Shown in pieces: positions 2-15,965 of a stretch of DNA of 40,847 bases (within the stretch, counting starts at the first letter, position 1; each line of letters begins with the position of its first letter). The stretch is taken from the UHGV virus genome UHGV-0390358; one strand, given 5' to 3'. The position numbers and the translations under genes were made by a program. This DNA is from a virus. Under the pieces are notes generated by a model, which searched no databases, was not told where the DNA came from, and was given only the letters and a program-made list of their open reading frames with translations.

Positions 2-166
2 CCTGGTGCGAATCTCTGGTACTTGAAGGCGGCTCTCGATCACATGATCTTTAACCAGATGCAGGAGTATTTTTCACCAGGCTATTTGCGTAAAATGGAG
101 CAACGTTCGAAGAAAGAGTTTAACCAGACATACTGGTGGCGACCACAGGATGTCACTCCGCAATAA
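2..166 (+). CDS. 3' end of a CDS truncated by the window start; function unknown
   Basis: Open frame from position 2 to TAA at 164-166 (...YLRKMEQRSKKEFNQTYWWRPQDVTPQ*); no start codon in window. Confidence 0.3.
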   Translation, partial: PGANLWYLKAALDHMIFNQMQEYFSPGYLRKMEQRSKKEFNQTYWWRPQDVTPQ

Positions 167-177
167 AAGGAGATATG

Positions 178-300
178 ATGGTTCAAATAACTTTTATTGT
201 ACTAATATGTGCAGCGTTTTTATGCTATTCATACATTTTGATAAAAATGGGTTTCAATTGGAATCTCTGTTGCGTGCAGCGGCATGGTTCGGCTTTGTAG
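178..300 (+). CDS. Small hydrophobic peptide (40 aa), unknown
   Basis: AGGAG at 168-172 then ATG at 178; MVQITFIVLICAAFLCYSYILIK... ; preferred over the overlapping 150..338 frame, which has no ribosome-binding site. Confidence 0.3.
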   Translation: MVQITFIVLICAAFLCYSYILIKMGFNWNLCCVQRHGSAL

Positions 301-385
301 TATTCGGAATTGTATTGTTCGGAAGAATAATAAAATAACTAGTTAATTTGTGGATTGGTGCTGTTTTTCCATGATAGGGGTAATT

Positions 386-766
386 ATGAGAAAAGTATTT
401 TTGATTTTTGGATTTATGCTTCTCGTTGGATGCCAGTCAGCTGCACAGTTTGAAAGAAATATGCTTACGTGGCGCGGGCAGAGTATAGACGCAATGGTTC
501 AGCAGTGGGGGTATCCTCAGGGAGAGCTTACATCTCCAGATGGAAACAGAGTGTATGTTTACTCAAGCTCTGGTAGTTATAACGTACCACAAACCACAAC
601 GTATAATACTACGTCTAATCTAATTGGTAATACTATATATTCAAACACATACGCAACAACTGATGGCGGTTATACACTCCATTTCAGTTGCTCTGTTTAC
701 GTTGAGTTTGGTGCTGATAAGATTATTAAAAATGTTACATGGCGCGGTAATAATTGCGTTGCGTGA
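386..766 (+). CDS. Phage-encoded lipoprotein (signal peptide + lipobox LLVGC), unknown function
   Basis: ATG at 386 preceded by AGGGG; N-terminus MRKVFLIFGFMLLVGCQS; AT-rich; followed by terminator. Confidence 0.6.
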   Translation: MRKVFLIFGFMLLVGCQSAAQFERNMLTWRGQSIDAMVQQWGYPQGELTSPDGNRVYVYSSSGSYNVPQTTTYNTTSNLIGNTIYSNTYATTDGGYTLHFSCSVYVEFGADKIIKNVTWRGNNCVA

Positions 767-774
767 CATGTCAC

Positions 775-800
775 AGGCCGCTTTCGCGGCCTTGTTTTTA
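775..800 (+). terminator. Rho-independent terminator after lipoprotein gene
   Basis: AGGCCGC-tttc-GCGGCCT stem-loop followed by TGTTTTTA. Confidence 0.5.
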
Positions 801-1012
801 ACGAATGCCACCGCCACCCGGGCGGGAATCCGCAGAACGCCCACCGCAGCGGGAGCCGTCAGCAGCAGTGTCGCTGTCGTGCTGACAACGACCGGCAAAG
901 GCCTGAGTTGAAGCTACCAGAGACAACAAAACGAACAGTGCAGCAAATGCTTATTTCCATCTATAAGCCACCTCAATGTGGCGTCAATGAGTGTAGCACT
1001 GACTTTTGTTTC

Positions 1013-1040
1013 GTCCATAAAAAAGCCCTCAGTGCGGGCT
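1013..1040 (-). terminator. Rho-independent terminator of the two-gene minus-strand operon
   Basis: On minus strand AAGCCC-gcactga-GGGCTT followed by TTTTTAT, immediately after the TAA stop at 1040-1042. Confidence 0.5.
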
Positions 1041-1417
1041 TAATTAACTTCGAGGATAATAGAATCTTTAGACTTGAATCCCACTTTCCTCATGGCTGTA
1101 ATGACGTTTTGGATAACCCACGTTTTCCCAAACTCTCTTTCGTGTACAATGGCGCAAGGAAAATGAAGGGCGCTTTTGTTGCACTTTATGGTGAAAGTTG
1201 TACCTTCAGCAAAATCCAAAACAGTCTGCAGATGTGCAGATATAAACGATTTAAACACATCTTCAAGCTCAGCAAGAGTAATTGGCGGTTTGTTCCTCTC
1301 GTCGTTCAGGCGTTCATATGCTGCGTGAAATGAAAAGTGAATTCTTGCCGCATCTTCTTGCAAGATCTCGTTAATCTCATCCTCAAGATCAATGAGTTGT
1401 TGTTCTGTTATAGACAT
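1040..1417 (-). CDS. Hypothetical protein, 125 aa, acidic N-terminus; second gene of a two-gene operon
   Basis: ATG at 1417 overlaps the upstream gene stop (ATGTCTATAA), indicating translational coupling; ends at terminator. Confidence 0.5.
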   Translation of the reverse strand: MSITEQQLIDLEDEINEILQEDAARIHFSFHAAYERLNDERNKPPITLAELEDVFKSFISAHLQTVLDFAEGTTFTIKCNKSALHFPCAIVHEREFGKTWVIQNVITAMRKVGFKSKDSIILEVN

Positions 1418-1626
1418 AGATAACGGGAGGTCGCCTCACTTATTTTTTGATTTAATTCATCATCATTGGATGCACGTACAGTAGCAACATGCTTACTTTG
1501 GCGTAGGGTCCCAATTCTGATATCAAATTCTTCATTATCGAAAGAGTCAACGAAAACAGCTTTACCAGTTTCTGGATGGTAAAAAGAGGCATAGTTTTGG
1601 TTGAGTTGCATATCAAATTTAAACAT
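1408..1626 (-). CDS. Hypothetical protein, 72 aa; first gene of a two-gene operon
   Basis: Strong ribosome-binding site GGGAGGA 5 nt before ATG at 1626; operator-like palindrome upstream at 1744-1758. Confidence 0.55.
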   Translation of the reverse strand: MFKFDMQLNQNYASFYHPETGKAVFVDSFDNEEFDIRIGTLRQSKHVATVRASNDDELNQKISEATSRYLCL

Positions 1627-1824
1627 ATCATCCTCCCATACGGGAACAGACGTGACTTACATACGGTGTGATTTTGACTAGTTAACTTTCTGCAGCAAAA
1701 CCATCACGGTAACTACAAACTAAAATGTTACAAATCAACTTTCTTACCTTTGGGGTAATAGTACGCTATTCACCTGCAATCTGTACAGAATTATTTAAAG
1801 GCACATCCCTGTGCCGCCGTTCTG

Positions 1825-2511
1825 TCAGAAGACCCCTGCCTTGTCGTTGATGTATTCCGCGTGGGTCTGGATATCACGCAGGCATTTACTCACACCGACG
1901 ATGTAGCAGAACATGGTGGTCAGTTCCGCCGCCGCGCCCGATACGTCGTGCCCGTCTTCCTGTAACTGGTTCAGCAGATTCATCAGCAGTGAGTTCTCCG
2001 TCAGGCCGAGAACACCAGACGGCGAGTGAATCAAACTGCGGTAGCCGGGCTTCAGCGGGGCGCTGTAGGTGTTGTTCTCTATCTTCATTGCCTGCATCAC
2101 TGCTGACGCCGTGGCGTTGGCTACCTGGTCGGCAACCATCTTTATGCGTTCTTCCTGCGGGAGCGAGTTTTTAATGTAACTTCCGGTGCGGCGGATCTGA
2201 GGAAGAACCTCACCCGTAACCCATTTACGAAAGCGGTAGGGGATAGTGCCTGGTGTCACCGCATCGCGGCAGCGGAGGATCAGTGTGTAGAGGCCTGACT
2301 CGTTGATAATATTGGTTTCGCCTTGACGGCCTAAGTTAAATTTAGCCCTTTCATCATCATCAAGAGATTTTATTGACATAGTGGGGTTTGTCAGTTGAAG
2401 AGCTTTAATAACGTCTTTGGCAACAAACCAAGGATTTCCATCAATAACAATGGCTCGAATGGTTGCCTCTGATTCAAAATGAAAAACAGATGGGGTTACG
2501 TTAGCAGTCAT
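1825..2511 (-). CDS. Bro-N domain + KilA-C (phage antirepressor-type) domain protein
   Basis: N-terminal FHFESEATIRAIVIDGNPWFVAKDVIKAL matches the Bro-N signature; C-terminal domain is paralogous to the 3657..3914 protein; start taken at internal ATG 2511 (MTANV...) rather than the ORF-track start 2664. Confidence 0.65.
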   Translation of the reverse strand: MTANVTPSVFHFESEATIRAIVIDGNPWFVAKDVIKALQLTNPTMSIKSLDDDERAKFNLGRQGETNIINESGLYTLILRCRDAVTPGTIPYRFRKWVTGEVLPQIRRTGSYIKNSLPQEERIKMVADQVANATASAVMQAMKIENNTYSAPLKPGYRSLIHSPSGVLGLTENSLLMNLLNQLQEDGHDVSGAAAELTTMFCYIVGVSKCLRDIQTHAEYINDKAGVF

Positions 2512-2905
2512 AGTGATCACCTTTGTAGTTAGGTTAATCACCACTACCGACGCCAATCGGTTGGTGGTGAACTGTGCAGGGTTGGCGTAACCGGCTACAA
2601 AGGACCCGGCGCACCTTTCGGTGCCCCCACACAGCCCACCATAGAATAGGTGCGCTTTACACATAAAAAAACCGCTTATGCGGCATATGTGCCTCTGTAG
2701 TAACCCGGGACGCCAATCCCGGCACTGGATTTTGCCAGTGCCCGATTACTATGGCACAAGAGGAGTGCGATGTAAATTTACCGCAAAGGTAATGATAAGC
2801 GCGAAGAAATATTAAAATCAACCGTATTTGGTTGATTGCGTTTAACGCTTGATCACCTGAAAGCAAGATATTACCTTTAAGGTAATGTTATTGTGAGGAA
2901 AAGCA

Positions 2906-3634
2906 ATGGAAGTTTTCTGGATAGTTGTTGGTGTGGTTGCGGTGATTATTTACGTTATCAACCAGAACAAGACTAAGATCTCTGATCGTACGGTCGTTAA
3001 TCAGAACAAAACGATAAAGACCGAAGATGGGGAGGTAACGATTAGTCGTACACAGGTGATAGAACACACATCTACTCAGTTTCAAAAAACTGGAGGTAAC
3101 GCGCCTGATATTTCCGTACCTCCTGCTTATGATAGTGCGGTAATCCAGACATATTATAAACAGCAGGAGTTTGCAAAAGAGAGGCAACTGATTCAGCCAA
3201 AGCCGTTTACAGCTGAGCTTCCACCTGGAGTGTCAACGCGTCCGGCATATCATGGAAGATTCCCTGGTGATGACATATCGTCTCAGTCATCTAAAAAAGC
3301 ACCTCAGGCAGTATCAGAGCCAGCAAGAATACCTTCTGTATCGCCGCCAAAAGAAGAATCAGCTAACAGAGTTTCAAGTGGCCGCAAGCAGTGTTTGCGA
3401 TGCAGAATAAACCTTCCATATGACAAATTCCGGAAATCGTCAAAAAATCCAGATGGATTGACTAAGTGGTGTGCAAGGTGTCTCGATGGCCCAAAGAATA
3501 CACGCCATATGAAGTGGTGCCCAATTTGTAATGTCCGCAGAAAACGGACCAGCTTTTACCCTAATAATCAAAATGCGGACGGCTTAATGGCATGGTGCAA
3601 AACGTGCTGGGACGAGCACAAAGCGAAACGATAG
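2906..3634 (+). CDS. Membrane-anchored protein with two C-terminal CxxC...CxxC zinc-ribbon-like repeats, unknown function
   Basis: ATG at 2906 with GAGGA ribosome-binding site; N-terminal TM helix; repeats CLRC..DGLTKWCARC and CPIC..DGLMAWCKTC; operator palindrome 2871-2885 immediately upstream. Confidence 0.6.
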   Translation: MEVFWIVVGVVAVIIYVINQNKTKISDRTVVNQNKTIKTEDGEVTISRTQVIEHTSTQFQKTGGNAPDISVPPAYDSAVIQTYYKQQEFAKERQLIQPKPFTAELPPGVSTRPAYHGRFPGDDISSQSSKKAPQAVSEPARIPSVSPPKEESANRVSSGRKQCLRCRINLPYDKFRKSSKNPDGLTKWCARCLDGPKNTRHMKWCPICNVRRKRTSFYPNNQNADGLMAWCKTCWDEHKAKR

Positions 3635-3656
3635 GCCGCTCTTGCGGCCTTTAAAT

Positions 3657-3914
3657 TTACCGGGTTTGTTTTCGTAATTGTTCGGCACAATAGTCGAGAT
3701 GTGTTTGCAGATCCTGCATAGACATCTGTGAGCTGGTGACGTAGTTAATCAGTGCAGTCAGTTCGGCAAGTGGGCCATCGACATTAAATCCATCCTTATC
3801 GAGATCTCGGAGTAATTTCATCAAGTGCGATCCCTCCACCAGTGACCTGACGCCTCCCGGCGTGTGAATCCTTTCGGTAAATCCGTTTTCCAGTGGATAG
3901 TGATACTGCTGCAT
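3657..3914 (-). CDS. Stand-alone KilA-C-like small protein; candidate SOS-inducible antirepressor
   Basis: Paralogous to the C-terminus of the 1825..2511 protein (HTPGGVRSLVEGSHLMKLLRDL... versus HSPSGVLGLTENSLLMNLLNQL...); GGAG ribosome-binding site favours the ATG at 3914 over 3929; LexA box 6 bp upstream. Confidence 0.6.
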   Translation of the reverse strand: MQQYHYPLENGFTERIHTPGGVRSLVEGSHLMKLLRDLDKDGFNVDGPLAELTALINYVTSSQMSMQDLQTHLDYCAEQLRKQTR

Positions 3915-3934
3915 CTTAATCTTCTCCATGCAAT

Positions 3935-3954
3935 AACTGTATATTTATACAGTA
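3935..3954. promoter_or_regulatory. LexA (SOS) box
   Basis: AACTGTATATTTATACAGTA, CTGT-N8-ACAG with AT-rich spacer, 15 of 16 core positions matching the E. coli consensus; overlaps a TATAAA -10-like hexamer of the leftward promoter. Confidence 0.7.
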
Positions 3955-4110
3955 GCAAATAATTTGTTTGCTATCCAGCACGTTTTGCAAATTACCTGAA
4001 AGGTAATATCTATTCGTATTTACAGCCTTTCTATCCATATGTGGTTTTTCAGGTAATAGAATAACCAGATATGCGGCGCAACGGGTGCTGCGACTATCTG
4101 GAGATTTAAC

Positions 4111-7100
4111 ATGACGGTCTCAACCGAAGTTGACCACAACGAATACACCGGTAACGGCGTTACGACATCGTTTCCGTATACTTTTCGAATTTTCAGAAAA
4201 TCAGACCTGGTTGTTCAGGTGTCTGACCTGAACGGGAACGTAACAGAATTGGTTCTGGATACCGGTTATACGGTAACTGGGGCGGGCACTTATAGTGGCG
4301 GTTCTGTGGTTCTTCCGTCTCCGCTTGCTACTGGATGGCGAATTACGATAGATCGTGTGCTTGATGTAGTGCAGGAGACAGACCTTCGCAATCAGGGAAA
4401 ATTTTTCCCCGAAGTGCATGAAGATGCCTTTGACTACCTGACGATGCTGATCCAGCAATGTTTTGGGTGGTTCAGACGTGCATTGATGAAACCATCTTTG
4501 CTTGCAAAATATTACGATGCAAAGCAAAACAAAATTTCTAACCTTGCAGATCCATCATTTGAGCAGGACGCTGTAAATAATCGCTCAATGCGTAATTATG
4601 TCGATGCTGCAATCGCCGGGGTTGTTGGTGGTTTTGGTTGGTTTATTCAGTATGGTTCTGGGGCTGTGTACCGAACGTTCCAGGATAAAATGCGTGATGC
4701 TATTAGCCCCAAAGATTTTGGAGCTGTTGGTGATGGTATAAATGACGATTCCACTGCAATAAGCGCGTGCCTTGAAGCCTCATCTCCAGTTTATAAAATT
4801 GACGGATTAGGGCTTACTTTTAAAGTATCAACTCTTCCGGATGTCAGTCGATTTAAAAATGCTCGTTTTTTATTTGAGAGAATACCGGGTCAGCCTCTTT
4901 TTTATGCTTCTGAAGATTTTATCCAGGGAGAGTTATTTAAAATTACAGATACACCGTGGTACAACGCCTGGACGCAGGATAAAACGTTTGTATATGACAA
5001 TGTCATCTATGCGCCTTTTATGGCTGGAGACCGCCATGGTGTAAATAACCTCCATGTTGCATGGGTTCGCTCAGGAGATGACGGGAAGACCTGGACAACG
5101 CCGGAATGGCTTACAGATTTACATGAAAACTATCCCACAGTTAACTATCACTGCATGTGTATGGGGGTTGTCAGAAATCGCCTTTTTGCTGTAATTGAGA
5201 CGCGGACCGTGAGCGGAAATAAACTGCAGGTTGCAGAGTTGTGGGATCGCCCAATGAGTCGCAGCCTTCGCGTTTATGGTGGTATAACGAAAGCAGCAAA
5301 TCAGCAAGTCGCTTATATTCGCATTACTGATCACGGATTATTTGCTGGTGATTTTGTCAACTTCTCAAACTCTGGTGTTACAGGTGTTACCGGGAATATG
5401 ACGGTGACTACTGTTATTGATAAAAATACTTTTACAGTTACGACGCAAAATACCCAGGATGTGGATCAGAATAACGAGGGTAGATACTGGAGTTTTGGTA
5501 CATCATTTCACTCTTCACCATGGAGAAAAACCAGTCTTGGAACTATTCCTTCTTTTGTTGACGGAAGCACTCCTGTTACTGAGATTCACAGTTTTGCGAC
5601 GATTAGCGATAACAGTTTTGCTGTTGGCTACCATAATGGTGATATTGGTCCACGCGAGCTTGGGATACTCTATTTCTCTGATGCTTTCGGTTCTCCTGGT
5701 AGCTTTGTTCGCAGACGCATACCTGCAGAATATGAGGCGAATGCATCTGAGCCATGTGTAAAATATTATGATGGCATTCTGTATCTGACGACCAGGGGGA
5801 CATTAAGTACTCAACCCGGTAGTTCATTGCACAGAAGCTCTGATTTAGGTACATCATGGAATTCTCTTCGCTTCCCAAATAATGTTCATCACTCAAACCT
5901 TCCTTTTGCCAAAGTTGGCGATGAGCTGATTATTTTTGGCAGTGAGCGCGCATTTGGTGAGTGGGAAGGAGGAGAGCCTGATAACCGTTATGCAGGAAAT
6001 TATCCAAGAACATTTATGACCAGAGTTAACGTCAATGAGTGGAGTCTGGATAATGTAGAGTGGGTTAATGTTACTGATCAGATTTATCAGGGCGGAATAG
6101 TTAACTCTGCGGTTGGTGTTGGTTCAGTTTGTATCAAAGACAACTGGCTGTACTACATTTTCGGTGGGGAAGACTTTCTAAACCCATGGAGCATAGGGGA
6201 TAACAACAGAAAATATCCTTATGTTCACGATGGTCACCCGGCTGATTTGTATTGTTTCAGGGTGAAAATTAAACAGGAAGAATTTGTTTCAAGGGATTTT
6301 GTCTACGGAGCCACTCCTAACAGAACGCTTCCTACTTTTATGTCGACGTCAGGCGTGAGGACGGTTCCTGTACCCGTTGATTTCACAGATGATGTTGCCG
6401 TCCAGTCACTGACTGTCCATGCAGGTACATCAGGACAAGTTCGCGCGGAAGTCAAACTTGAGGGTAATTACGCCATTATTGCGAAGAAAGTACCGTCTGA
6501 TGATGTTACCGCTCAGAGATTAATCGTTAGCGGCGGTGAAACAACGTCTTCAGCAGATGGTGCAATGATAACGTTGCATGGTTCCGGAAGCAGTACTCCA
6601 CGTCGCGCGGTATATAACGCACTCGAACATCTTTTTGAGAACGGAGATGTTAAACCTTATCTTGATAATGTAAATGCTCTTGGTGGTCCGGGAAACAGGT
6701 TCTCGACAGTTTATCTTGGCTCCAATCCTGTGGTTACCAGTGACGGAACATTAAAGACAGAGCCGGTCTCTCCTGACGAAGCATTGCTGGATGCCTGGGG
6801 TGACGTCAGGTATATCGCTTATAAATGGCTGAACGCTGTCGCTATAAAGGGGGAAGAAGGGGCGAGGATACATCATGGTGTAATCGCGCAGCAACTTCGT
6901 GATGTTCTTATTTCTCACGGACTCATGGAAGAAGAAAGCACAACATGCCGCTATGCCTTTCTTTGCTATGACGATTATCCCGCAGTATATGATGACGTCA
7001 TTACTGGCCAAAGGGAAATGCCGCTGACTGATAATGACGGGAGCATCATTGTTGATGAGGATGATAATCCAGTGATGGTAATGGAAGACATCATTGAGCG

Positions 7101-7230
7101 CGTTGAAATAACGCCAGCAGGATCTAGATGGGGGGTCAGACCTGATCTCTTATTCTATATCGAGGCAGCATGGCAGCGCAGAGAAATGGATAAGATAAAA
7201 GAGCGGATTCAGTCTCTGGAAGAACGTTAA
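4111..7230 (+). CDS. Tailspike endosialidase (endo-N-acetylneuraminidase) with C-terminal intramolecular chaperone domain
   Basis: 1039 aa; conserved podovirus tailspike N-terminal head-binding region; sialidase Asp-boxes SGDDGKTW and SSDLGTSW; C-terminal HGVIAQQLRDV... autoproteolytic chaperone-type domain. Confidence 0.85.
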   Translation: MTVSTEVDHNEYTGNGVTTSFPYTFRIFRKSDLVVQVSDLNGNVTELVLDTGYTVTGAGTYSGGSVVLPSPLATGWRITIDRVLDVVQETDLRNQGKFFPEVHEDAFDYLTMLIQQCFGWFRRALMKPSLLAKYYDAKQNKISNLADPSFEQDAVNNRSMRNYVDAAIAGVVGGFGWFIQYGSGAVYRTFQDKMRDAISPKDFGAVGDGINDDSTAISACLEASSPVYKIDGLGLTFKVSTLPDVSRFKNARFLFERIPGQPLFYASEDFIQGELFKITDTPWYNAWTQDKTFVYDNVIYAPFMAGDRHGVNNLHVAWVRSGDDGKTWTTPEWLTDLHENYPTVNYHCMCMGVVRNRLFAVIETRTVSGNKLQVAELWDRPMSRSLRVYGGITKAANQQVAYIRITDHGLFAGDFVNFSNSGVTGVTGNMTVTTVIDKNTFTVTTQNTQDVDQNNEGRYWSFGTSFHSSPWRKTSLGTIPSFVDGSTPVTEIHSFATISDNSFAVGYHNGDIGPRELGILYFSDAFGSPGSFVRRRIPAEYEANASEPCVKYYDGILYLTTRGTLSTQPGSSLHRSSDLGTSWNSLRFPNNVHHSNLPFAKVGDELIIFGSERAFGEWEGGEPDNRYAGNYPRTFMTRVNVNEWSLDNVEWVNVTDQIYQGGIVNSAVGVGSVCIKDNWLYYIFGGEDFLNPWSIGDNNRKYPYVHDGHPADLYCFRVKIKQEEFVSRDFVYGATPNRTLPTFMSTSGVRTVPVPVDFTDDVAVQSLTVHAGTSGQVRAEVKLEGNYAIIAKKVPSDDVTAQRLIVSGGETTSSADGAMITLHGSGSSTPRRAVYNALEHLFENGDVKPYLDNVNALGGPGNRFSTVYLGSNPVVTSDGTLKTEPVSPDEALLDAWGDVRYIAYKWLNAVAIKGEEGARIHHGVIAQQLRDVLISHGLMEEESTTCRYAFLCYDDYPAVYDDVITGQREMPLTDNDGSIIVDEDDNPVMVMEDIIERVEITPAGSRWGVRPDLLFYIEAAWQRREMDKIKERIQSLEER

Positions 7231-7536
7231 AAAAAAGCCCGCAATATTTTGCGGGTATCAAAAACGGAGTTTGTGAAAAGTTATCTTTGAATTCTATCAT
7301 GAATCAGTACGTATTTTAAATACATGTTCAGGTTTATTACACCATAGCATTATTAAATACAAAATTAAGTCTATGGTTCCTGTACAACTGCCCCCACTCT
7401 GCTGGCTCGTTCTGTAAAATCATTAGTACTTTTATTGAGATATATGATATGGAACAATAATGATTCATATATGGTTTACTATGCGGGGTTAGTCATCAAT
7501 AATTGACTGGCTTATAGATAGTAAACAGGAGAAAGT

Positions 7537-7941
7537 ATGTCTGCTCAAGTAACAAGTGAGCAATTAAATCAGTTGCTTAGTTTTGGTTCTCTTGCTGCGG
7601 TTATTGCAGGTGTCCCTCCGGAGGTTGCTTTAGGGGCTTTGGCTGGGGCGGTAATTTTTGTTACCTCTGCAGTAGAGTACCCCATCCGTCGCCGGGTGCT
7701 CCTTTCGATGCTCAGCTTTCTTTGTGGCCTTCTCTTTTACAAACCAGCAGCATCAATTCTTATCGGCATAGCCAGCCTGATCCCTACCATCACGCAGGAC
7801 TCTTTTGAAAAAGGGATTGTTTTCTCTGCAGGCGCATTCGTGTCAGCAATTGTCGCTGTGCGTATTGGTATATGGCTCTATCACCGTTCCGATAATCCAC
7901 GCGAGTTAATTCCGGGGAGAAAAGACGATGGTAACGCATGA
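7537..7941 (+). CDS. Putative holin-like membrane protein
   Basis: AGGAG ribosome-binding site; 134 aa with several predicted TM segments; first gene of a cassette followed by endolysin and spanins. Confidence 0.45.
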   Translation: MSAQVTSEQLNQLLSFGSLAAVIAGVPPEVALGALAGAVIFVTSAVEYPIRRRVLLSMLSFLCGLLFYKPAASILIGIASLIPTITQDSFEKGIVFSAGAFVSAIVAVRIGIWLYHRSDNPRELIPGRKDDGNA

Positions 7942-8236
7942 GTTTTTTTTGCTTATCACCAATGCAGTTATTTGCACTGGCATAGCAATTCGCGTTGTCA
8001 CATTCCGGCGTAACGGCTCTCAACATCGAAGGTGGGGAGGATGGCTTGCTTATTTCCTGATTGTTGCTGCGGCCAGTATTCCTGTTCGAGTCGCCTATGC
8101 AATCTGGTTACGTACGCCAATGGCTGTGGATTTATCTGAGGTCATTATCAACGCTGTCATGCTGGCTGCGGTTATTAAAACGCGCGGTAACGTCGTTCAA
8201 ATTTTTAAAGTATCGAGGTCTAAACATGGAGATTAA
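7928..8236 (+). CDS. Putative holin/antiholin-like small membrane protein
   Basis: 102 aa hydrophobic protein; start overlaps previous gene; immediately upstream of endolysin. Confidence 0.4.
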
Positions 8237-8855
8237 ACAATTCCAGCGAGCTGCTGGTACCAGCGAGGCACTGGCCGCACGCTGGTTCTCGCATATAACT
8301 TCTGCGATGAAAGAGTTTGGTATCAGCAAAGCAGAAGATCAGGCAATGTTTATTGCTCAAGTCGGGCATGAGTCTGGGGGCTTCACCAGGTTGCAGGAGA
8401 ATTTCAACTACAGTGTCAGCGGACTGGCTAACTTCGTTCGGGCTGGGCGTCTCACTCAGGGGCAGGCTAATGCACTGGGGCGCCGTGCTGGTGAACCACC
8501 ATTGCCACTTGAGCGCCAGCGCGCGATCGCAAATCTGGTATACAGCAAACGCATGGGGAACAATGCCCCTGGTGATGGCTGGAATTACCGAGGGCGCGGA
8601 CTTATCCAGATTACCGGTTTGAATAACTATCGTGATTGCGGAAACGGTCTGAAGGTTGACCTGCTGGAGAGCCCTGAACTGCTGGCGCAGGACGAATATG
8701 CGGCTCGTAGCGCGGCGTGGTTCTTCGCCAGCAAAGGATGCATGAAGTATACCGGCGATATTGCACGTGTAACTCTGATTATCAATGGTGGCAGAAACGG
8801 TATCGACGACCGGCGTGCGCGGTACATCACAGCAAGTAAGGTACTGGCGGTATGA
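8226..8855 (+). CDS. Endolysin, glycoside hydrolase family 19 (chitinase-like) type
   Basis: ATG at 8226 (ribosome-binding site GAGG); motifs [12 protein letters not shown] and [12 protein letters not shown] typical of GH19 phage endolysins. Confidence 0.8.
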
Positions 8856-9349
8856 TCTGGGCATTTGTAAAAGCATACCGTAAACAGTTACTTATCGTGG
8901 CGATGCTTGCTGTTCTGGTCATATCAGGAGTTGTTGCCTGGAATGTGCACGGCATCCGTCAGTACGATGCCGGGTATGCGCAGGCGAAGGAAGATCAGAA
9001 ACAGGCTGATGATAAGTTAAGGTCACAGCGTGAGCAGGAGAAAACACAAATTGAACGTGAAGCACAATCCCGTATCGATGCGGCGCGTGCTGATGCTGAG
9101 TATGCTAATTCCGCTGCTGACAGCATGCGCGCCGAGCTTGACAAAACCAGGCGGCTCGCCGAACACTATACCGGATCTTTCCCCCCTGGCACGCCAGCCA
9201 GCAAGGTCATCGGTGTGCTCGCCGACATGCTTGAAGAAAGCAACCGAGTTTACAACGCAACAGCAGCTGAGGCTGAAAAGTATCGTATCGCAGGGGAATT
9301 CTGCGAGCAGCAATACGATTCACTGAAGAAGCAAAAATCGTGGCACTGA
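8852..9349 (+). CDS. Rz-like inner-membrane spanin
   Basis: N-terminal TM helix followed by charged coiled-coil region; directly after endolysin. Confidence 0.65.
9078..9326 (+). CDS. Rz1-like outer-membrane lipoprotein spanin, embedded in the +1 frame of the Rz-like gene
   Basis: Embedded ORF with lipobox LLTAC, Pro/Ser-rich; start codon choice uncertain. Confidence 0.4.
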   Translation: MRRVLMLSMLIPLLTACAPSLTKPGGSPNTIPDLSPLARQPARSSVCSPTCLKKATEFTTQQQLRLKSIVSQGNSASSNTIH

Positions 9350-9354
9350 TTTCC

Positions 9355-9616
9355 GGTGACGGTATATGAAACGGTACGGGAAAAGTTGAGGCTTGGAAAA
9401 GTGTTATCACTCAATTGGTTATGGTTGTCGTAAATAATCGAGTGGGAATGATTAACAGCTAACTCATAGCAACTCATTCCTATTCAGATACCAATTTAAC
9501 CCTCTGTTTTTACAGAGGGTTTTTGTTTTTATGTATTCATTTCTATTCACTCTACACCATATTTTTCGTCGGTACAGGTGACGGTATTACCTTAAAGGTA
9601 TACTCTCATACCGTCA
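9355..9616. repeat. Candidate attP arm region: GGTGACGGTAT repeats upstream of the integrase gene
   Basis: GGTGACGGTAT at 9355-9365 and 9577-9587 (direct), inverted copy ATACCGTCA at 9608-9616; core site not identified. Confidence 0.3.
9499..9530 (+). terminator. Rho-independent terminator downstream of lysis cassette
   Basis: ACCCTCTG-ttttta-CAGAGGGT followed by TTTTTGTTTTT. Confidence 0.6.
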
Positions 9617-9643
9617 TGAAAATGGTTTCTATACGGGTGAATT

Positions 9644-10894
9644 GTGCTTACCGATACAAAATTAAAAAACCTCAAGCCGCAGGACAAACTGTACAAGGTC
9701 TCCGATCGTGACGGGCTGTATGTAGCTGTGCTTACGTCAGGCACGGTCTCGTTTCGCTATGACTACCGTATCAACGGTCGCCGCGAAACACTGGTAATCG
9801 GGCAGTATGGGCGTGACGGTATCAGCCTGGCAGAAGCGCGAGAAGAACTGATTGCTGCAAAGAAGCTGCTTAAAGCAGGCCAGTCACCGGCTGCGGCTAA
9901 ACGTGACGGTATCAAAAAGATTCGTGGTGCCGAGACGTTTGCGGTACATACCGACAGTTATATGAAACACGTCATCCTGGCTGACAGTACCCGCGCAATG
10001 AAACAGGCGGTGATCGACCGTGACATACTTCCGGTTCTTGGCAATAAAATGATGGCTGAAATTACCACATCGATGGTTCGTGATTTGTGTGACCGGATTG
10101 TCGAACGCGGTGGCCGGGCAACAGCAGTACAGGCCAGGGAGATCATCAGCAGCGTATACCGTCACGCCAATGACCGTGGTCATGGTTTGTTTAATCCTGC
10201 GGCTGACATTAAACCTTCGTCTATCGCCATATTTAAACCACGAGAGCGAACACTGACACCAGAAGAAATTGGCCTGTTCTTCCGCACGCTGGATGCCATT
10301 GGTGCTATGGGCACTATGAAAATGGCTTTAAAGCTGGTGCTTATCACTATGGTTCGTAAAGGCGAATTCACCAATGCAACGTGGGATGAAATAGATTTTA
10401 AAAAATGGACATGGACAATTCCTTCAGACCGCATGAAGGGAAGCCGGGCGCACGTTATTTACCTGCCTAAACAGGCACAGGATATATTGGTTGGGTTGCA
10501 GATGTGCGCTGGTGGAAGTGAATATCTGGTTCCTGGTCGTTACAATTTCCGGAAGCCATTATCTAATGCCGCGCTGAACTCTCTGATCGACAGAACGGTG
10601 AAAATAATAAATGAAGATGGTGAGCATATTCAGGACTTCACCGTACACGATATGCGCCGTACAGCCAGTACGTTGTTGCATGAGGCTGGTTATCCTTCAG
10701 ACTGGATTGAAAAGGCTCTGGCACATGAGCAGAAAGGTGTGCGCGCCGTATATAACAAAGCGGAATACGCCAGACAGCGCGCCTACATGTTGCAGCAGTG
10801 GGCCGATATGATTGATTCCTGGATTAACGGGGAGCATACGGATCTGATTCCGTTCTCCCCGTCGAAGTTTGAGAAGTGGATGGCGGGGGAATAA
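9644..10894 (+). CDS. int: Tyrosine site-specific integrase
   Basis: GTG start at 9644; N-terminal LTDTKLKNLKP...YRINGRRETLVIG arm-binding-type domain; C-terminal catalytic region HDMRRTASTLL...AVYNKAEY. Confidence 0.85.
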   Translation: MLTDTKLKNLKPQDKLYKVSDRDGLYVAVLTSGTVSFRYDYRINGRRETLVIGQYGRDGISLAEAREELIAAKKLLKAGQSPAAAKRDGIKKIRGAETFAVHTDSYMKHVILADSTRAMKQAVIDRDILPVLGNKMMAEITTSMVRDLCDRIVERGGRATAVQAREIISSVYRHANDRGHGLFNPAADIKPSSIAIFKPRERTLTPEEIGLFFRTLDAIGAMGTMKMALKLVLITMVRKGEFTNATWDEIDFKKWTWTIPSDRMKGSRAHVIYLPKQAQDILVGLQMCAGGSEYLVPGRYNFRKPLSNAALNSLIDRTVKIINEDGEHIQDFTVHDMRRTASTLLHEAGYPSDWIEKALAHEQKGVRAVYNKAEYARQRAYMLQQWADMIDSWINGEHTDLIPFSPSKFEKWMAGE

Positions 10895-10897
10895 CGT

Positions 10898-11092
10898 TTA
10901 ATTATTCTGCTGATTTTCTTCCATCTCGGCTTCTGCTGCCAGTGATTCAATTTTGTTTTCGAATATTGCTGACAGTGTTGCAAATTCAGCATCAGTGACA
11001 GCGGGAATTGGAACAAACCTGATCCCGCTGTGTGCAAGCATGTTTGCAGTTTCAAGGCATTTTCTTAAATCTGCTGGTGATGCCCTGTTCAT
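10898..11092 (-). CDS. Small acidic protein (64 aa), translationally coupled to the methyltransferase gene; alternatively a frameshifted methyltransferase C-terminus
   Basis: ATG at 11092 overlaps methyltransferase stop (ATGA); protein-like sequence ...IRFVPIPAVTDAEFATLSAIFENKIESLAAEAEMEENQQNN. Confidence 0.3.
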   Translation of the reverse strand: MNRASPADLRKCLETANMLAHSGIRFVPIPAVTDAEFATLSAIFENKIESLAAEAEMEENQQNN

Positions 11093-11739
11093 GCAGCACG
11101 CTCCCGCCCCTGGTTGTCTGTTGGTGACAGCGGAGCATTGCTGAATGCATTTGTTAATCCGCCAATATCCAACGCGTATCCAGGGTGTAGTTGCACTGCC
11201 GGGTCTTCGCACTGATTACCCCAAACATCGAAGCCATGAGACGTCTGGCGGGCGAACAGTTCAATGCGAGAAACATCGCCTAATAATTGCACAAGTTTTT
11301 CACGAACGATATCTGGCTTTCTTGAATGCTCAAGCCGCGGTGCGGTAAATGACTGAACGATCCCTGCATTAATGCGCGTAGGTAGTTTTCCCTTTACCGC
11401 AAACAGGCAATCTTCACTATTGGCGCGAGTCATGTGTCCCATACCCATAACCAGTTTATCTGGTTGTCGACTACCACATTTTATCCACGTGAAGCCCTTC
11501 ATGGTCATCAGACGGAATCCCCAGGCTTCAACAACTTTTAGCGCTTCGAGTGGTTGTGTTGGCACCCACCACATGGCCAACAGACAGTTTTCATCGGCCA
11601 AATCCCACACAGGAAGGCGGCAGATATCCATCACACTCATAACCGGATATTTAAAACTGGCACCGCGATTACCATCTGCGGCTTTGTCCCGGTATACCCA
11701 GGGTGGATCTGCATAGATTAGTGTGTATTTCTTAGTCAT
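11089..11739 (-). CDS. DNA N6-adenine methyltransferase, MT-A70 family (orphan methylase)
   Basis: Motif IYADPPW near N-terminus; ribosome-binding site GGGGTGG. Confidence 0.8.
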   Translation of the reverse strand: MTKKYTLIYADPPWVYRDKAADGNRGASFKYPVMSVMDICRLPVWDLADENCLLAMWWVPTQPLEALKVVEAWGFRLMTMKGFTWIKCGSRQPDKLVMGMGHMTRANSEDCLFAVKGKLPTRINAGIVQSFTAPRLEHSRKPDIVREKLVQLLGDVSRIELFARQTSHGFDVWGNQCEDPAVQLHPGYALDIGGLTNAFSNAPLSPTDNQGRERAA

Positions 11740-12031
11740 AAACCACCCCGCAACATCCTATACCGCTATAGTCTCCACGGCGAAGGCCGTTACCTTTTGT
11801 GATACATTGGTCCCTGCGAACCGCGATCCTTGCACGCTCAACATCACCAGAAGCAACATCCATACACTGAAGCCAAAGGTGAGCGGCAATGCGGAACTGC
11901 CCTTTTTTCTCTCTTTCAATCGCGCGTTTTTCGATCTCTATCGCCGCAGGAGTAACGGCGACAATCTTTGACGGACTGCGCATTGAAACCTTATTCATGT
12001 GATATTTTTCAAGTCGGCTTAACTTTCTCAC
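11732..12031 (-). CDS. Hypothetical protein
   Basis: ORF between AlpA-like and methyltransferase genes; GTG start with AGAGGG upstream; no recognisable motif. Confidence 0.3.
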   Translation of the reverse strand: MRKLSRLEKYHMNKVSMRSPSKIVAVTPAAIEIEKRAIEREKKGQFRIAAHLWLQCMDVASGDVERARIAVRRDQCITKGNGLRRGDYSGIGCCGVVYD

Positions 12032-12140
12032 TTAATCCAACCCTCTCTGAAAATTAATGCCAGCAGATAAAGCCATGCTGAAACAGAGGCCAGGAATAAG
12101 TACCATCCTGACCATTTGATCCAGTGCCTTAGCAGCGCAC

Positions 12141-12389
12141 TCATGCAGCGTTGCTCACGGGACGATATACACGTTGCTGAACAGGAGGTTTTTTACCCTG
12201 GAACTCTGCCGGGCTTGCTGCCTGACGTTCATCAAGCCAACGCTCAACTTCGTCACGGTTCCATGCGCAGCGTTTGTCAGTGATATACCAGCGTTTAGGA
12301 AATTCCCCTGCGCGCTCCATACGGTCGATAGTGCTCCATGACAGTGGCACCACCGCCAGGAGTTCCTTCTTACCTAATGCACCTTTCAT
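12141..12389 (-). CDS. AlpA-family DNA-binding protein (excisionase / transcriptional regulator-like)
   Basis: 82 aa; ...LSWSTIDRMERAGEFPKRWYITDKRCAWNRDEVERWLDE resembles the AlpA family HTH. Confidence 0.55.
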   Translation of the reverse strand: MKGALGKKELLAVVPLSWSTIDRMERAGEFPKRWYITDKRCAWNRDEVERWLDERQAASPAEFQGKKPPVQQRVYRPVSNAA

Positions 12390-12438
12390 AAATACCTCTC
12401 TTGGTTGCAGTGCGGCGCGTGTGGCACCGCGGTGGTGG

Positions 12439-13461
12439 TTACTCGAATTCTGGACGCATATCGTTAAGCGTCATCATGAATTTTTGGTGATATTCATCAC
12501 CGAGCTTTTCAGCCATGGTGTTAATCTCATTTTCAGCGCTCTTGAACATCGTTTTTGCATCTTCAGCAGATGGATCCAGGCTATTAAGTATCGCGATGAT
12601 ATATTCTCGAGCTTCTTCTCGTTCTGAATCTGAAATTGGCGACAGGTGTTGACGCTCATCGTCAACTACGGAATATTCACCAGTGATAACAGCTGCGTTA
12701 TCTTGGCTAAGTCCAGCTTCAGCGCGCTCATCCATAACAACAGCCTTCTGCATTTCAATAGAAACAGGAAGATATTTGAATAGTCGGCGAATTACTGTTT
12801 TTTTAGCCATCTCATCGAAGTGATCAACCCATGGGCCACTGCTACCGGCTTTGCTCAGTGCACGAACTTTCTCAATGTCTGCCCGGCTCATAACTTCAAA
12901 TTGGACTCCGCCATCTTTCAGTCGTGCAACGGCGTAAACGTGCGTTAATTCTCCGCGGTCACCTGTTTCGCAAGGTAAATGCTCGAGCGTTTCTTCCAGG
13001 CCGTATGAGTAGCTGAATTTGTCGTTTGTATGTACGGTACGAGCCGAGATACTCAGGATCTGCCCAGAGCGGCGGGCAAGGTCAATCATTCCGCGATAGC
13101 CGATAATCAGCTGTGCTTCTGTAGATACGGTTTCCCATCTTCCATTTACTTTCTGGCGTTTGTCGAACGGTATCAGGTAAGCGTGTCCAAGAGCTCCGCC
13201 TGGTTCAAGACCCAATTGGGCACATTGCATAATTGCCCCCAGGAAGCTGGCTTGGTCGCATGATGCAAGTTTTGGAACCTTTCGGATCTCTGTGGTTGCT
13301 ATGCGCGCCAGACGGTCTGCTGTCATGTGCTTTGGAAGTGCCAAAGCCATCTGAGCTTTAATTTTTGGGTCTGCCAGAAGTCCGGCCAGAGTTGTTGGTT
13401 TCTCATTATGATGTGCAACTTGGTTACCGGCAGCCGCTGCCTTAAGTGCATTGATAGACAT
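12439..13461 (-). CDS. recT: RecT-family single-strand annealing recombinase
   Basis: Strong similarity by eye to Rac RecT (ADRLARIATTEIRKVP...GYRGMIDLARRSGQI...HVYAVARLKDGG.QFEVM...KTVIRRLFKYLPVSIE); AAGGAG ribosome-binding site. Confidence 0.85.
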   Translation of the reverse strand: MSINALKAAAAGNQVAHHNEKPTTLAGLLADPKIKAQMALALPKHMTADRLARIATTEIRKVPKLASCDQASFLGAIMQCAQLGLEPGGALGHAYLIPFDKRQKVNGRWETVSTEAQLIIGYRGMIDLARRSGQILSISARTVHTNDKFSYSYGLEETLEHLPCETGDRGELTHVYAVARLKDGGVQFEVMSRADIEKVRALSKAGSSGPWVDHFDEMAKKTVIRRLFKYLPVSIEMQKAVVMDERAEAGLSQDNAAVITGEYSVVDDERQHLSPISDSEREEAREYIIAILNSLDPSAEDAKTMFKSAENEINTMAEKLGDEYHQKFMMTLNDMRPEFE

Positions 13462-13470
13462 TTTTTCTCC

Positions 13471-14666: not shown

Positions 14667-14668
14667 TA

Positions 14669-14821: not shown

Positions 14822-14840
14822 AACTTGTTACCTCGGTCTG

Positions 14841-14917: not shown

Positions 14918-14928
14918 TCTATCTGGCA

Positions 14929-14952: not shown

Positions 14953-14974
14953 TTACTTACTGAAAACTATAGTT

Positions 14975-15944: not shown

Positions 15945-15965
15945 TATCCAGCTACAACCCTCTGT

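What the first reader, a model, noticed from the sequence alone, without database searches (positions are those of the whole stretch)
806..900. Short GC-rich island between two AT-rich accessory units
About 95 bp of roughly 65-70% GC (gccaccgccacccgggcggg...) sits between the lipoprotein terminator and the two-gene operon terminator, in contrast to the AT-rich flanks; possibly a remnant of a recombination junction or a small structured element.
Basis: seen in the sequence. Interest (0 to 1): 0.2.

Follow-up and report, generated by a model that had tools for sequence, protein, structure and literature searches.

The report
Broken small secreted-peptide prophage gene
The GC-rich patch is not a junction scar or an RNA element: it is the coding sequence, on the opposite strand, for the exported part of a tiny prophage accessory gene that is already annotated in many E. 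coli genomes, and this copy has lost its start codon to a 13-base deletion.

Summary
Window 806-900 is 69.5% GC against about 40% in the flanks, and it is the most GC-rich 95-nt stretch in the 40.8-kb window.

It is not intergenic. It is the 3' two-thirds of a small minus-strand gene. In relatives this gene encodes a 53-aa precursor, MKKAFAALFVLLSLVASTQAFA|GRCQHDSDTAADGSRCGGRSADSRPGGGGIR. The relatives include phage TL-2011b gp43, RefSeq WP_000708858.1 ('transmembrane anchored protein') and PHROG 14503 ('membrane associated protein', moron category).

The GC excess sits at codon positions 1 and 2 (0.74/0.77), while position 3 (0.55) is close to background. The Gly/Arg/Ala/Ser/Asp/Pro-rich peptide, which is under purifying selection (pN/pS 0.14), therefore explains it.

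In this window a 13-bp deletion (junction 953|952) removes the ATG. The result is a very recent pseudogene, otherwise identical to intact copies.

The gene and its flanking terminators form a conserved module between variable accessory cassettes of epsilon15/phiV10-like prophages, and phiV10 has a breakpoint inside the island. The 'recombination junction' idea is therefore only partly right. The 'structured element' idea is not supported for the island itself.

The peptide's core motif recurs across Proteobacteria and Cyanobacteria and has no Pfam, NCBIfam or PDB match. Its function is unknown.

The parts
806..900 (.). The GC-rich island as reported (69.5% GC)
   Evidence: It coincides almost exactly with the mature-peptide coding segment 801-893.
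798..950 (-). In-frame remnant of the small gene: 50 codons plus stop (TAA 798-800). It translates to AFAALFVLLSLVASTQAFAGRCQHDSDTAADGSRCGGRSADSRPGGGGIR*. There is no ATG, and an in-frame TAA (951-953) lies immediately upstream.
   Evidence: phrog_14503 E=8.2e-37, profile positions 4-53 of 53.
801..893 (-). Coding sequence of the predicted mature 31-aa peptide, GRCQHDSDTAADGSRCGGRSADSRPGGGGIR. It has two near-invariant Cys and the core motif D-x-A-x-D-G-S-R-C-G-x-R-[SA]-x3-R-P-G-G.
   Evidence: GC by codon position is 0.74/0.77/0.55. pN/pS is 0.14. Conservation is shown.
894..950 (-). Remnant of the signal-peptide coding part: h-region and the AFA cleavage motif. The first three codons (ATG AAA AAA -> MKK) are lost or disrupted.
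   Evidence: AF2 models residues 2-22 (first model) or 3-15 (second model) as a helix.
952..953 (-). Junction of the 13-bp deletion. Relatives read GGAAAT[TTCACAATGAAAA]AAGC; the window reads GGAAAT|AAGC. The deletion removes the ATG and shifts the frame relative to anything upstream.
   Evidence: Alignments. The junction is absent from 5,426 complete E. coli genomes, 50,697 phage records and IMG/VR. It is present in L068, NCBI GCA_050897925.1.
859..960 (-). Out-of-frame 33-aa ORF (MEISICCTVRF...) created by the deletion. It fuses a conserved upstream ATG (958-960, inside the CACATGG/SD-like region) to the gene body in the wrong frame. It is probably meaningless.
967..982 (-). Conserved hairpin (GCCAC-ATTGAG-GTGGC) in the gene's leader.
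   Evidence: 83% of cells are paired against 25-63% for slid controls. Four of 5 pairs show compensatory changes. 0 of 500 shuffles reach the observed score.
990..1017 (-). Putative sigma-70 promoter (inferred): TGGACG (1017-1012), a 16-nt spacer with TGC (998-996), then TACACT (995-990).
   Evidence: A -10-like TACAcT/TACAAT/TATTAT sits at the same position in enterobacterial homologues. It is below the threshold of the consensus scan. This is inference only.
1023..1041 (-). Intrinsic terminator of the upstream two-gene operon. It is the right-hand edge of the conserved module.
   Evidence: Homology to other prophages ends at window ~1041-1055.
775..792 (+). GC-rich terminator hairpin shared by the convergent lipoprotein-like gene and the small gene. 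A proper T-tract follows it only on the + strand.
   Evidence: It is conserved in all relatives and in phiV10.
763..774 (.). Perfect 12-bp palindrome GTGACATGTCAC overlapping the lipoprotein gene's stop codon. It marks the left-hand edge of the conserved module.
   Evidence: Seen directly in the sequence. Homology to other phages starts at ~761-762. It is conserved in phiV10 and in the Kluyvera, Klebsiella and Buttiauxella loci.

Best explanation
The island is the coding sequence, on the minus strand (801-893, stop 798-800), for the exported part of a small prophage accessory ('moron') gene.

In intact relatives the gene encodes a 53-aa precursor. It has a classical Sec signal peptide (MKKAFAALFVLLSLVASTQAFA, with small residues at -3/-1) followed by a 31-aa peptide rich in Gly, Arg, Ala, Ser, Asp and Pro with two conserved cysteines (C-x12-C). 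These residues use G/C-rich first and second codon positions and the peptide is under purifying selection, so the DNA is GC-rich whatever the genome composition. That is the whole cause of the 'island'.

Inferred mode of action of an intact copy:
1. Leftward transcription starts from its own weak promoter just downstream of the preceding operon's terminator.
2. The leader begins with a conserved hairpin.
3. The precursor is exported by Sec and cleaved by signal peptidase I after AFA.
4. A disulfide forms between the two cysteines.
5. The small peptide acts in the periplasm or envelope of the lysogen, probably as a ligand- or cation-binding mini-domain that alters the cell surface. Its actual target is unknown.

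In this window the gene is dead or nearly so. A 13-bp deletion (junction 953|952) removed the ATG and the first Lys codons and left an in-frame TAA directly upstream. Everything else is 100% identical to intact copies, so the inactivation is recent.

The gene with its two flanking terminators is a conserved module between variable cassettes in epsilon15/phiV10-like (Uetakevirus) prophages.
For: Shown:
- An annotated 162-nt CDS lies at the same place in E. coli ST80, LS45 and CE10 and in phage TL-2011b gp43.
- The alignment shows the 13-bp gap and otherwise near-identity.
- phrog_14503 matches at E=2e-40 for the intact protein and 8e-37 for the window remnant, which covers profile positions 4-53 of 53.
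- GC by codon position is 0.74/0.77/0.55 against a background of 0.57/0.42/0.49. The GC expected from the amino-acid sequence plus the window's own codon usage is 65%, against 69% observed.
- In 15 enterobacterial homologues GC1/GC2 stay at about 0.7/0.76 while GC3 ranges 0.28-0.68. pS is 0.72 and pN 0.10 in the core, ratio 0.14.
- N-terminal extensions upstream of MKK are not conserved, and several homologues have a stop within 2-6 codons upstream, so MKK is the shared start.
- The signal peptide varies while the mature part is nearly invariant.
- Homologues were found in 57 species genomes, and 366 cluster representatives match at 50% identity clustering.
- Terminators flank the gene on both sides.
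- Neighbours vary and phiV10 lacks the gene.

Inferred: the promoter, export, signal-peptide cleavage, the disulfide and the site of action.
Against: - No experimental evidence that the peptide is made or exported was found in the searched literature.
- The promoter is not detected by the consensus scan.
- The antisense frame that shares wobble positions (PPGRESAERPPQREPS...) is also conserved by construction, so pN/pS alone does not fix the strand. The strand call rests on the start codon, the signal peptide and the stop being conserved across phyla.
- The deposited assembly that carries the same deletion still calls a 46-aa gene there, so an annotator did not treat it as a pseudogene.
- The deletion was found in only one assembly, which may be the window's own source. 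An assembly error cannot be fully excluded.
Confidence: 0.85

Rival explanations
1. Non-coding scar of recombination. The GC-rich patch would be left-over foreign DNA at the junction between two independently acquired AT-rich cassettes.
For: Homology to other prophages breaks at both edges of the ~280-bp module, and the neighbours differ between relatives. In phiV10 a breakpoint lies inside the island, with only ~23 nt of the gene's 3' end kept.
Against: The stretch is an open frame identical to an annotated gene. It shows strong purifying selection, conserved signal peptides and conserved stops from Enterobacterales to Rhizobiales and cyanobacteria. The GC excess is at codon positions 1 and 2, not at position 3. 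That is the signature of amino-acid content, not of foreign base composition.
Confidence: 0.07
2. The small gene is still functional in this window. It would be translated from an alternative start, either TTG at 929 (43 aa) or the CTG at 938 implied by the 46-aa gene call in the deposited assembly.
For: The body of the gene is intact and identical to functional-looking copies. A 46-aa product is annotated in L068, and a 46-aa form in Shigella dysenteriae (P0016).
Against: Either start would give a signal peptide lacking the positively charged n-region (MKK) and 7-10 residues of the hydrophobic core. No Shine-Dalgarno motif precedes these codons. Under standard Sec signal-peptide rules (established knowledge), export would be expected to fail.
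Confidence: 0.08
3. A structured RNA: a small RNA, riboswitch-like element or processed 3' UTR encoded by the GC-rich stretch.
For: High GC gives low folding energies (-35 and -45 kcal/mol). The region lies between two terminators.
Against: Folding is no better than dinucleotide shuffles (z -0.34 and -1.06). There is no Rfam match. Substitutions among homologues follow a codon pattern.
Confidence: 0.03
4. The + strand ORFs over the island (805-885, 26 aa MPPPPGRESAERPPQREPSAAVSLSC; or 624-911, 95 aa) are the real genes.
For: The PPGRESAERPPQREPS translation is conserved among enterobacterial homologues.
Against: That frame shares its wobble positions with the minus-strand frame, so it is conserved automatically. 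Its start and stop are not conserved, ending C* in some homologues and CW in others. The 95-aa ORF runs through the lipoprotein gene in another frame and through the terminator. Neither has a signal peptide or any family match.
Confidence: 0.02

Closest known systems
RefSeq WP_000708858.1 / WP_072754464.1 'transmembrane anchored protein'; phage TL-2011b gp43 (YP_007001994.1); PHROG 14503 'membrane associated protein' (moron category) and PHROG 3117
   Same: Same gene at the same position, between the convergent late-region gene and the leftward accessory/anti-repressor genes. The nucleotide sequence is identical over the retained 50 codons. Parts of the 401-bp region match in 537 of 5,426 complete E. 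coli genomes.
   Different: The window copy lacks 13 bp including the ATG. The database names are only descriptive: no function has been tested and no paper was found. The name 'transmembrane anchored' probably reflects the 77-aa over-extended ORF call. The conserved start gives a cleavable signal peptide instead.
Phage morons in the sense of Hendrix and colleagues: autonomous promoter-gene-terminator units inserted between phage genes, as summarised in PMC3573123
   Same: A small gene transcribed against the flanking late genes and bracketed by terminators. It is present or absent among otherwise related phages and sits in a locus whose cargo varies.
   Different: Promoter activity and expression from the prophage are not shown. 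Here the unit is the constant element and its neighbours are the variable ones. This copy is inactivated.
Excalibur calcium-binding domain (Pfam PF05901; DxDxDGxxCE motif). This is a lead from memory only.
   Same: An extracytoplasmic, Cys-bracketed mini-domain with an acidic D-x-x-x-D-G-x-x-C stretch (DRASDGSRCG here against DRDGDGIACE-like in Excalibur).
   Different: None of 31 diverse members hits PF05901, or any other Pfam family, at E<=1. The Cys spacing is 12 residues rather than about 30. The third acidic ligand position is Ala. It is not a member.
Other small exported prophage or phage envelope factors, such as lambda Bor, T4 Spackle and MarB-like periplasmic peptides
   Same: A Sec signal peptide plus a short periplasmic product encoded by an accessory gene.
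   Different: Only chance-level similarity confined to the signal peptide: MarB E=0.16, and T4_Spackle E=0.065 in one of 31 members. There is no lipobox, so it is not a lipoprotein like Bor.

Membership tests
PHROG 14503 / RefSeq 'transmembrane anchored protein' small-peptide family | Significant full-length sequence similarity to the family profile | tested here: met
   The window remnant 801-950(-) scores E=8.2e-37, profile positions 4-53 of 53. The intact relative scores E=2.3e-40.
PHROG 14503 / RefSeq 'transmembrane anchored protein' small-peptide family | Complete ORF with the conserved MKK start | tested here: not met
   A 13-bp deletion removes the ATG, and an in-frame TAA lies directly upstream. 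The window therefore holds a pseudogene copy of the family, not an intact member.
PHROG 14503 / RefSeq 'transmembrane anchored protein' small-peptide family | N-terminal Sec signal peptide, then the conserved C-x4/5-D-x-A-x-D-G-S-R-C-G-x-R-[SA]-x3-R-P-G-G core | tested here: met
   The core is fully present in the window. The signal peptide is present in relatives but truncated in the window. Export itself cannot be tested here.
Phage moron (autonomous accessory unit) | Own terminator, and insulation from the neighbours | tested here: met
   The terminator of the upstream operon lies at 1041-1023 and a hairpin at 775-792 lies downstream. The downstream hairpin has a T-tract only on the + strand.
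Phage moron (autonomous accessory unit) | Own promoter | tested here: inconclusive
   The consensus scan gives no hit. A conserved -10-like TACAcT, with TGn in E. coli, lies 35-40 nt upstream of the ATG in homologues.
Phage moron (autonomous accessory unit) | Present or absent among closely related phages at a fixed locus | tested here: met
   phiV10 and the O157 typing phages lack it apart from a 23-nt stub. TL-2011b, ZX5, phiv142-3 and HEMP4 carry it.
Phage moron (autonomous accessory unit) | Expressed from the repressed prophage and not needed for lytic growth | not testable with these tools
   This needs transcriptomics or genetics.
Rfam structured RNA families | Match to a covariance model, or folding better than shuffles | tested here: not met
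   No relevant Rfam hit at E<=1. Folding z = -0.34 and -1.06.
Excalibur (PF05901) and any other Pfam or NCBIfam domain | Profile HMM match | tested here: not met
   No consistent family appears among 31 diverse members or 10 long members at E<=1 or E<=0.1. A profile search of PDB sequences gives no hit at E<=10. Foldseek against PDB gives 0 hits.
Known anti-phage defence systems (PADLOC) | Profile match of the peptide or its neighbours | tested here: not met
   No hits for the peptide, the lipoprotein-like gene, the two-gene operon, the BRO-N/Ant gene or ORF 2906-3634.

The most novel reading that the evidence does not exclude
The roughly 25-residue core encoded by the island (C-x4/5-D-[RT]-A-[AS]-D-G-S-R-C-G-x-R-[SA]-x3-R-P-G-G) may be an undescribed, autonomous extracytoplasmic mini-domain.

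It occurs as a stand-alone secreted peptide in Enterobacterales prophages, Rhizobiales, cyanobacteria, Vibrio and others. It also occurs as an N-terminal periplasmic module ahead of a transmembrane segment, in tandem copies, and as a variant next to bacterial SH3 domains. It has no Pfam, NCBIfam or PDB counterpart.

On this reading, enterobacterial phages captured it as a lysogenic-conversion factor that binds a ubiquitous envelope ligand or cation, for example to modify the cell surface or exclude other phages.
Probability: 0.3. Interest if true: 0.45.

Novelty: already known. Interest (0 to 1): 0.22.

Why it matters
For this window it matters little. The 'island' is an already annotated small accessory gene, its GC content is a by-product of the peptide's amino-acid composition, and this copy is a fresh pseudogene.

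Two wider points are modestly useful. First, sharp local GC peaks in AT-rich phage accessory regions can flag very small genes that ORF-length filters miss, or that annotators call with the wrong start (77, 53 and 46 aa versions are all in the databases). Second, the peptide belongs to a family that is strikingly conserved across phyla yet has no domain model, structure or literature. A secreted 25-30-residue disulfide-bonded module kept nearly invariant from E. coli prophages to Mesorhizobium and Anabaena is a reasonable candidate for experimental characterisation.

Tried and rejected
Searches and tests that gave nothing:
- Rfam scan of 300-1900 at E<=1: nothing relevant.
- RNA folding of both strands of the island: not better than shuffles.
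- Pfam and NCBIfam on the peptide, on 31 diverse homologues and on 10 long homologues: only chance-level signal-peptide hits such as MarB, HxsA3, PhrK and T4 Spackle.
- PADLOC: nothing.
- Profile search of PDB sequences: nothing at E<=10.
- Literature searches for the protein name, the motif and the accessions: nothing on this protein.

Structure prediction:
- The first AlphaFold model, from a shallow 17-sequence alignment, was poor in the mature part (pLDDT 41-60).
- A 49-sequence alignment raised it to 74-83, but the fold is only a beta-bridge plus short turns.
- Foldseek against PDB found nothing.
- The AFDB library was unavailable.

Context and the deletion:
- A search for conserved neighbour genes across 57 loci found none beyond close relatives, so there is no guilt by association. 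Contexts outside Enterobacterales are mixed, chromosomal and phage-like.
- The exact deletion junction was sought in IMG/VR (0 hits), in complete E. coli genomes (0 of 5,426) and in phage records.

Ideas considered and rejected:
- The 77-aa ORF (ATG/GTG inside the upstream terminator's T-tract) as the true gene, because the extension is not conserved outside E. coli.
- + strand ORFs 805-885 and 624-911.
- Foreign GC-rich origin, because GC3 is near background.

Full report
**1. The observation**

Window 806-900 contains 66 G+C in 95 bases (69.5%). The window as a whole is 48.4% GC and the local flanks (1-805 and 901-1800) are 40.0%. A maximal-scoring-segment analysis places the island at 807-903 at 71% GC.

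Only 11 of 40,753 overlapping 95-nt windows are as GC-rich, and all 11 lie in this island. Against the local background the shift is highly significant: binomial 6e-9, and 0 of 500 local first-order Markov simulations reach it. Against a homogeneous model of the whole 40.8 kb it is less striking, because 13.5% of simulated windows contain an equally GC-rich 95-mer somewhere.

- A lipoprotein-like gene (386-766, + strand; MRKVFLIFGFMLLVGC lipobox) is followed by a terminator hairpin at 775-792.
- A two-gene minus-strand operon (1408-1626 and 1040-1417, overlapping by 10 nt) is followed by a terminator at 1041-1023.

**2. What is there**

Read on the minus strand, 950 to 798 is an open frame: AFAALFVLLSLVASTQAFAGRCQHDSDTAADGSRCGGRSADSRPGGGGIR-stop.

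Megablast of 700-1100 finds the region in 537 of 5,426 complete E. coli genomes and in 16 phage records. The phages are epsilon15/phiV10-like podoviruses (Uetakevirus): TL-2011b, vB_EcoP_ZX5, phiv142-3, HEMP4 and EC.W1-9.

In those records a 162-nt minus-strand CDS is annotated exactly here, as 'hypothetical protein' or 'transmembrane anchored protein' (WP_000708858.1, WP_072754464.1, TL-2011b gp43). It encodes MKKAFAALFVLLSLVASTQAFAGRCQHDSDTAADGSRCGGRSADSRPGGGGIR. This protein matches PHROG 14503 ('membrane associated protein', moron category; E=2e-40) and PHROG 3117. The window's own 50-codon remnant matches with E=8e-37 over profile positions 4-53 of 53.

The reported island (806-900) is almost exactly the part that encodes the mature peptide (801-893).

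**3. Why it is GC-rich**

In the mature part, GC at codon positions 1, 2 and 3 is 0.74, 0.77 and 0.55. In the long ORFs of the window it is 0.57, 0.42 and 0.49. Given the amino-acid sequence and the window's own codon usage, the expected GC is 65%, against 69% observed.

Across 15 enterobacterial homologues GC1 and GC2 stay near 0.7 and 0.76, while GC3 floats between 0.28 and 0.68 with the host genome. The composition is therefore dictated by a Gly/Arg/Ala/Ser/Asp/Pro-rich peptide and not by foreign base composition.

Synonymous sites are near saturation (pS 0.72) while non-synonymous change is rare (pN 0.10, ratio 0.14). The signal-peptide part is looser (ratio 0.37).

The antisense frame that shares wobble positions is conserved as a by-product. 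It lacks a conserved start and stop, whereas the sense frame has an MKK/MR start, a hydrophobic signal peptide with small residues at -3/-1, and a stop shortly after RPGG in every lineage examined.

**4. The lesion in this window**

Relatives read ...GATGGAAAT TTCACAATGAAAA AAGCATTTGCT... on the minus strand. The window reads ...GATGGAAAT AAGCATTTGCT.... Thirteen bases, including the ATG, are missing. The junction lies between window 953 and 952.

What remains is an in-frame TAA (951-953) followed by the gene body without a start. The only canonical in-frame start is a TTG at 929. It would yield a product without the charged n-region and with about half of the hydrophobic core of the signal peptide. 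An upstream ATG (958-960) becomes fused out of frame and gives a 33-aa nonsense ORF (859-960).

The 77-aa ORF that some annotators call (ZX5; PHROG 3117) is frameshifted too. That extension is in any case not conserved outside E. coli, and several homologues have stops 2-6 codons upstream of MKK.

Where the deletion junction was sought:

| Collection | Result |
|---|---|
| 5,426 complete E. coli genomes | absent |
| Phage records | the only full-length match still shows the 13-bp gap |
| IMG/VR | absent |
| NCBI assembly GCA_050897925.1 (a 5.1-Mb contig) | present, base for base |

In GCA_050897925.1 the gene caller reports a 46-aa product. That assembly may simply be the source of the window. 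Apart from the deletion, the 286 bases compared are identical to the intact ST80 copy, so this is a very recent inactivation.

**5. The surroundings and the 'junction' idea**

Homology between prophages begins at about window 761-762 and ends at about 1041-1055. The left edge is a perfect palindrome, GTGACATGTCAC, overlapping the lipoprotein stop codon. The right edge is the terminator of the upstream operon.

Inside that module the sequence is 92-97% identical in hundreds of genomes. Outside it the neighbours differ:
- On the convergent side: the lipoprotein-like gene, Ant, AntA, P22_AR_N or other ORFs.
- On the upstream side: phrog_14518/14630, a YafO-family toxin pair, DUF2335 or another hypothetical.

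phiV10 and the O157 typing phages keep only the terminator and the last ~23 nt of the gene (...GGGGIR-stop). These are joined directly to the 3' end of the BRO-N gene, which corresponds to window ~1826.

So the small gene is a conserved anchor in a cargo hot-spot, and in some phages a breakpoint does fall within the island. In this window, however, the island is a gene body and not a scar.

**6. Expression signals (mostly inferred)**

Upstream of the ATG, enterobacterial homologues share the following, in order:
- a -10-like hexamer (TACACT, TACAAT or TATTAT; window 995-990, preceded by TGC);
- a hairpin whose sequence changes while its pairing is kept (GCCAC/GTGGC, GCCGC/GCGGC, GCTGC/GCAG, TTGCC/GGCAA);
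- a CTACACATGG box;
- a GGAAA or AAGG Shine-Dalgarno.

On the MAFFT alignment the 5-bp helix is paired in 83% of cells, against 25-63% when the partner is slid. Four of five pairs show double changes, and no shuffle in 500 reaches the score. Per-sequence folding z-scores are modest. A 5'-terminal hairpin is a known mRNA-stabilising device (established knowledge). This role is an inference, and the promoter itself falls below the scan's threshold.

**7. The peptide family**

A word-indexed search found 57 proteins in Escherichia, Shigella, Klebsiella, Citrobacter, Cronobacter, Franconibacter, Salmonella, Pectobacterium and Dickeya.

A scan of one genome per species found 57 loci, which also include:
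- Rahnella, Rouxiella, Pantoea, Kluyvera, Buttiauxella and Tolumonas;
- many Rhizobiales: Mesorhizobium, Rhizobium, Agrobacterium, Bradyrhizobium, Methylobacterium, Devosia and Microvirga;
- cyanobacteria: Dolichospermum, Anabaena and Nostoc;
- Vibrio, Bacteriovorax and Rhodoferax.

An exhaustive HMM search found 366 cluster representatives at 50% identity clustering, E<=1e-3.

The invariant or near-invariant columns are the two Cys, D30, A32, D34, G35, S36, R37, G39, R41, R46, G48 and G49. Most members are 45-60-aa precursors that end a residue or two after RPGG.

Some members carry the module in other arrangements:
- after a signal peptide and ahead of a transmembrane segment and a cytoplasmic domain (P0075, P0096, P0097, P0121, P0132);
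- in tandem (P0062, P0080);
- as a CPCPY...NGSRCGGRSAYS.PGG variant next to a bacterial SH3 domain (P0194).

No Pfam, NCBIfam or PDB-sequence match exists for any of 41 members tested.

AlphaFold with a 49-sequence alignment gives pLDDT 74-83 for residues 21-50, with a beta-bridge and short turns. Foldseek finds nothing in the PDB. No conserved neighbour gene exists across taxa. Non-enterobacterial contexts are mixed. No paper mentions the protein or the motif.

**8. How it most likely works**

Shown: it is a small gene; its product has the hallmarks of a Sec-exported, signal-peptidase-I-cleaved precursor; the mature part is what selection preserves; and this copy lacks a start codon.

Inferred: transcription from its own promoter in the lysogen, export, a C25-C38 disulfide, and action in the periplasm or envelope.

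My best guess for function is a small ligand- or cation-binding module that changes an envelope property of the lysogen, in the way morons typically do (PMC3573123 for the concept). Confidence in that specific function is low, at about 0.3. The occurrence of the same module as the periplasmic head of membrane proteins supports 'autonomous extracytoplasmic binding module' over 'enzyme' or 'toxin'.

**9. Comparison with the known, and verdict**

The feature is an already annotated gene family member, so I rate it 'already known' as a sequence object. It behaves like a phage moron. It is not an intact member because the start codon is missing, and its function is uncharacterised. A resemblance to the Excalibur DxDxDGxxCE motif, recalled from memory, fails the profile test.

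Interest for this finding is low (0.22). The only element with wider appeal is the cross-phylum conservation of an unmodelled secreted mini-domain.

Noticed in passing
window 967-982 (- strand): A conserved hairpin lies in the leader of the small gene (GCCAC-N6-GTGGC). Enterobacterial homologues show compensatory changes (GCCGC/GCGGC, GCTGC/GCAG, TTGCC/GGCAA). 83% of cells are paired against 25-63% in slid controls, and 0 of 500 shuffles reach the score. It may be a 5' stabiliser or an operator.
   Followed up: partly
window 763-774: A perfect 12-bp palindrome, GTGACATGTCAC, overlaps the stop codon of the lipoprotein-like gene, exactly where homology to other prophages begins. It is also kept in phiV10 and next to the homologous gene in Kluyvera, Klebsiella and Buttiauxella. 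It could be a recombination or protein-binding site.
   Followed up: partly
window 1040-1626 (- strand): Two overlapping small genes (72 aa phrog_14630, then 125 aa phrog_14518, with a 10-nt overlap) have a toxin-antitoxin-like layout. In relatives the same slot holds a YafO-family toxin pair or a DUF2335 pair. There are no Pfam, NCBIfam or PADLOC hits.
   Followed up: partly
P0009, P0016, P0053-P0055; L068: Other copies of the small gene also carry lesions or replacements confined to the start or signal-peptide region. Examples are EPEC C342-62 (frameshifted NEKSICC...), the Shigella dysenteriae 46-aa form, and Klebsiella forms with unrelated N-termini. The ATG-AAAAAA run may be a mutational hot-spot, or the gene may often be dispensable.
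   Followed up: no
P0075, P0096, P0097, P0121, P0132, P0062, P0080, P0194, P0176, P0118, P0195: The same ~25-residue Cys-bracketed motif also occurs in other arrangements. It forms an N-terminal periplasmic module ahead of a TM helix and an uncharacterised cytoplasmic domain. It occurs in tandem copies. A CPCPY...NGSRCGGRSAYS.PGG..P.CY variant occurs beside a bacterial SH3 domain. No Pfam model covers it.
   Followed up: partly
window 2906-3634 (+ strand): A 242-aa ORF (phrog_6762, E=4e-148) has a C-terminal region with paired CxxC motifs that resembles endonuclease VII / Lar-like zinc-ribbon families (E 1e-8 to 1e-11).
   Followed up: no
window 8430-8535, 25427-25529, 37237-37386: Three further short stretches reach >=65% GC in 95-nt windows (maxima 67%, 65% and 68%). 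They were not examined. They lie within or near long ORFs.
   Followed up: no
window 24531-24607 (- strand): A tRNA-Arg (anticodon TCT) gene lies inside the window. It could be a phage-borne tRNA or an attachment-site neighbour. This was not examined.
   Followed up: no
window 1018-1020 / L005 (ZX5 record 39465..133): Databases hold three different gene models for the same locus: 77 aa starting in the upstream terminator's T-tract, 53 aa, and 46 aa. This shows inconsistent start-codon calling for this small gene.
   Followed up: yes
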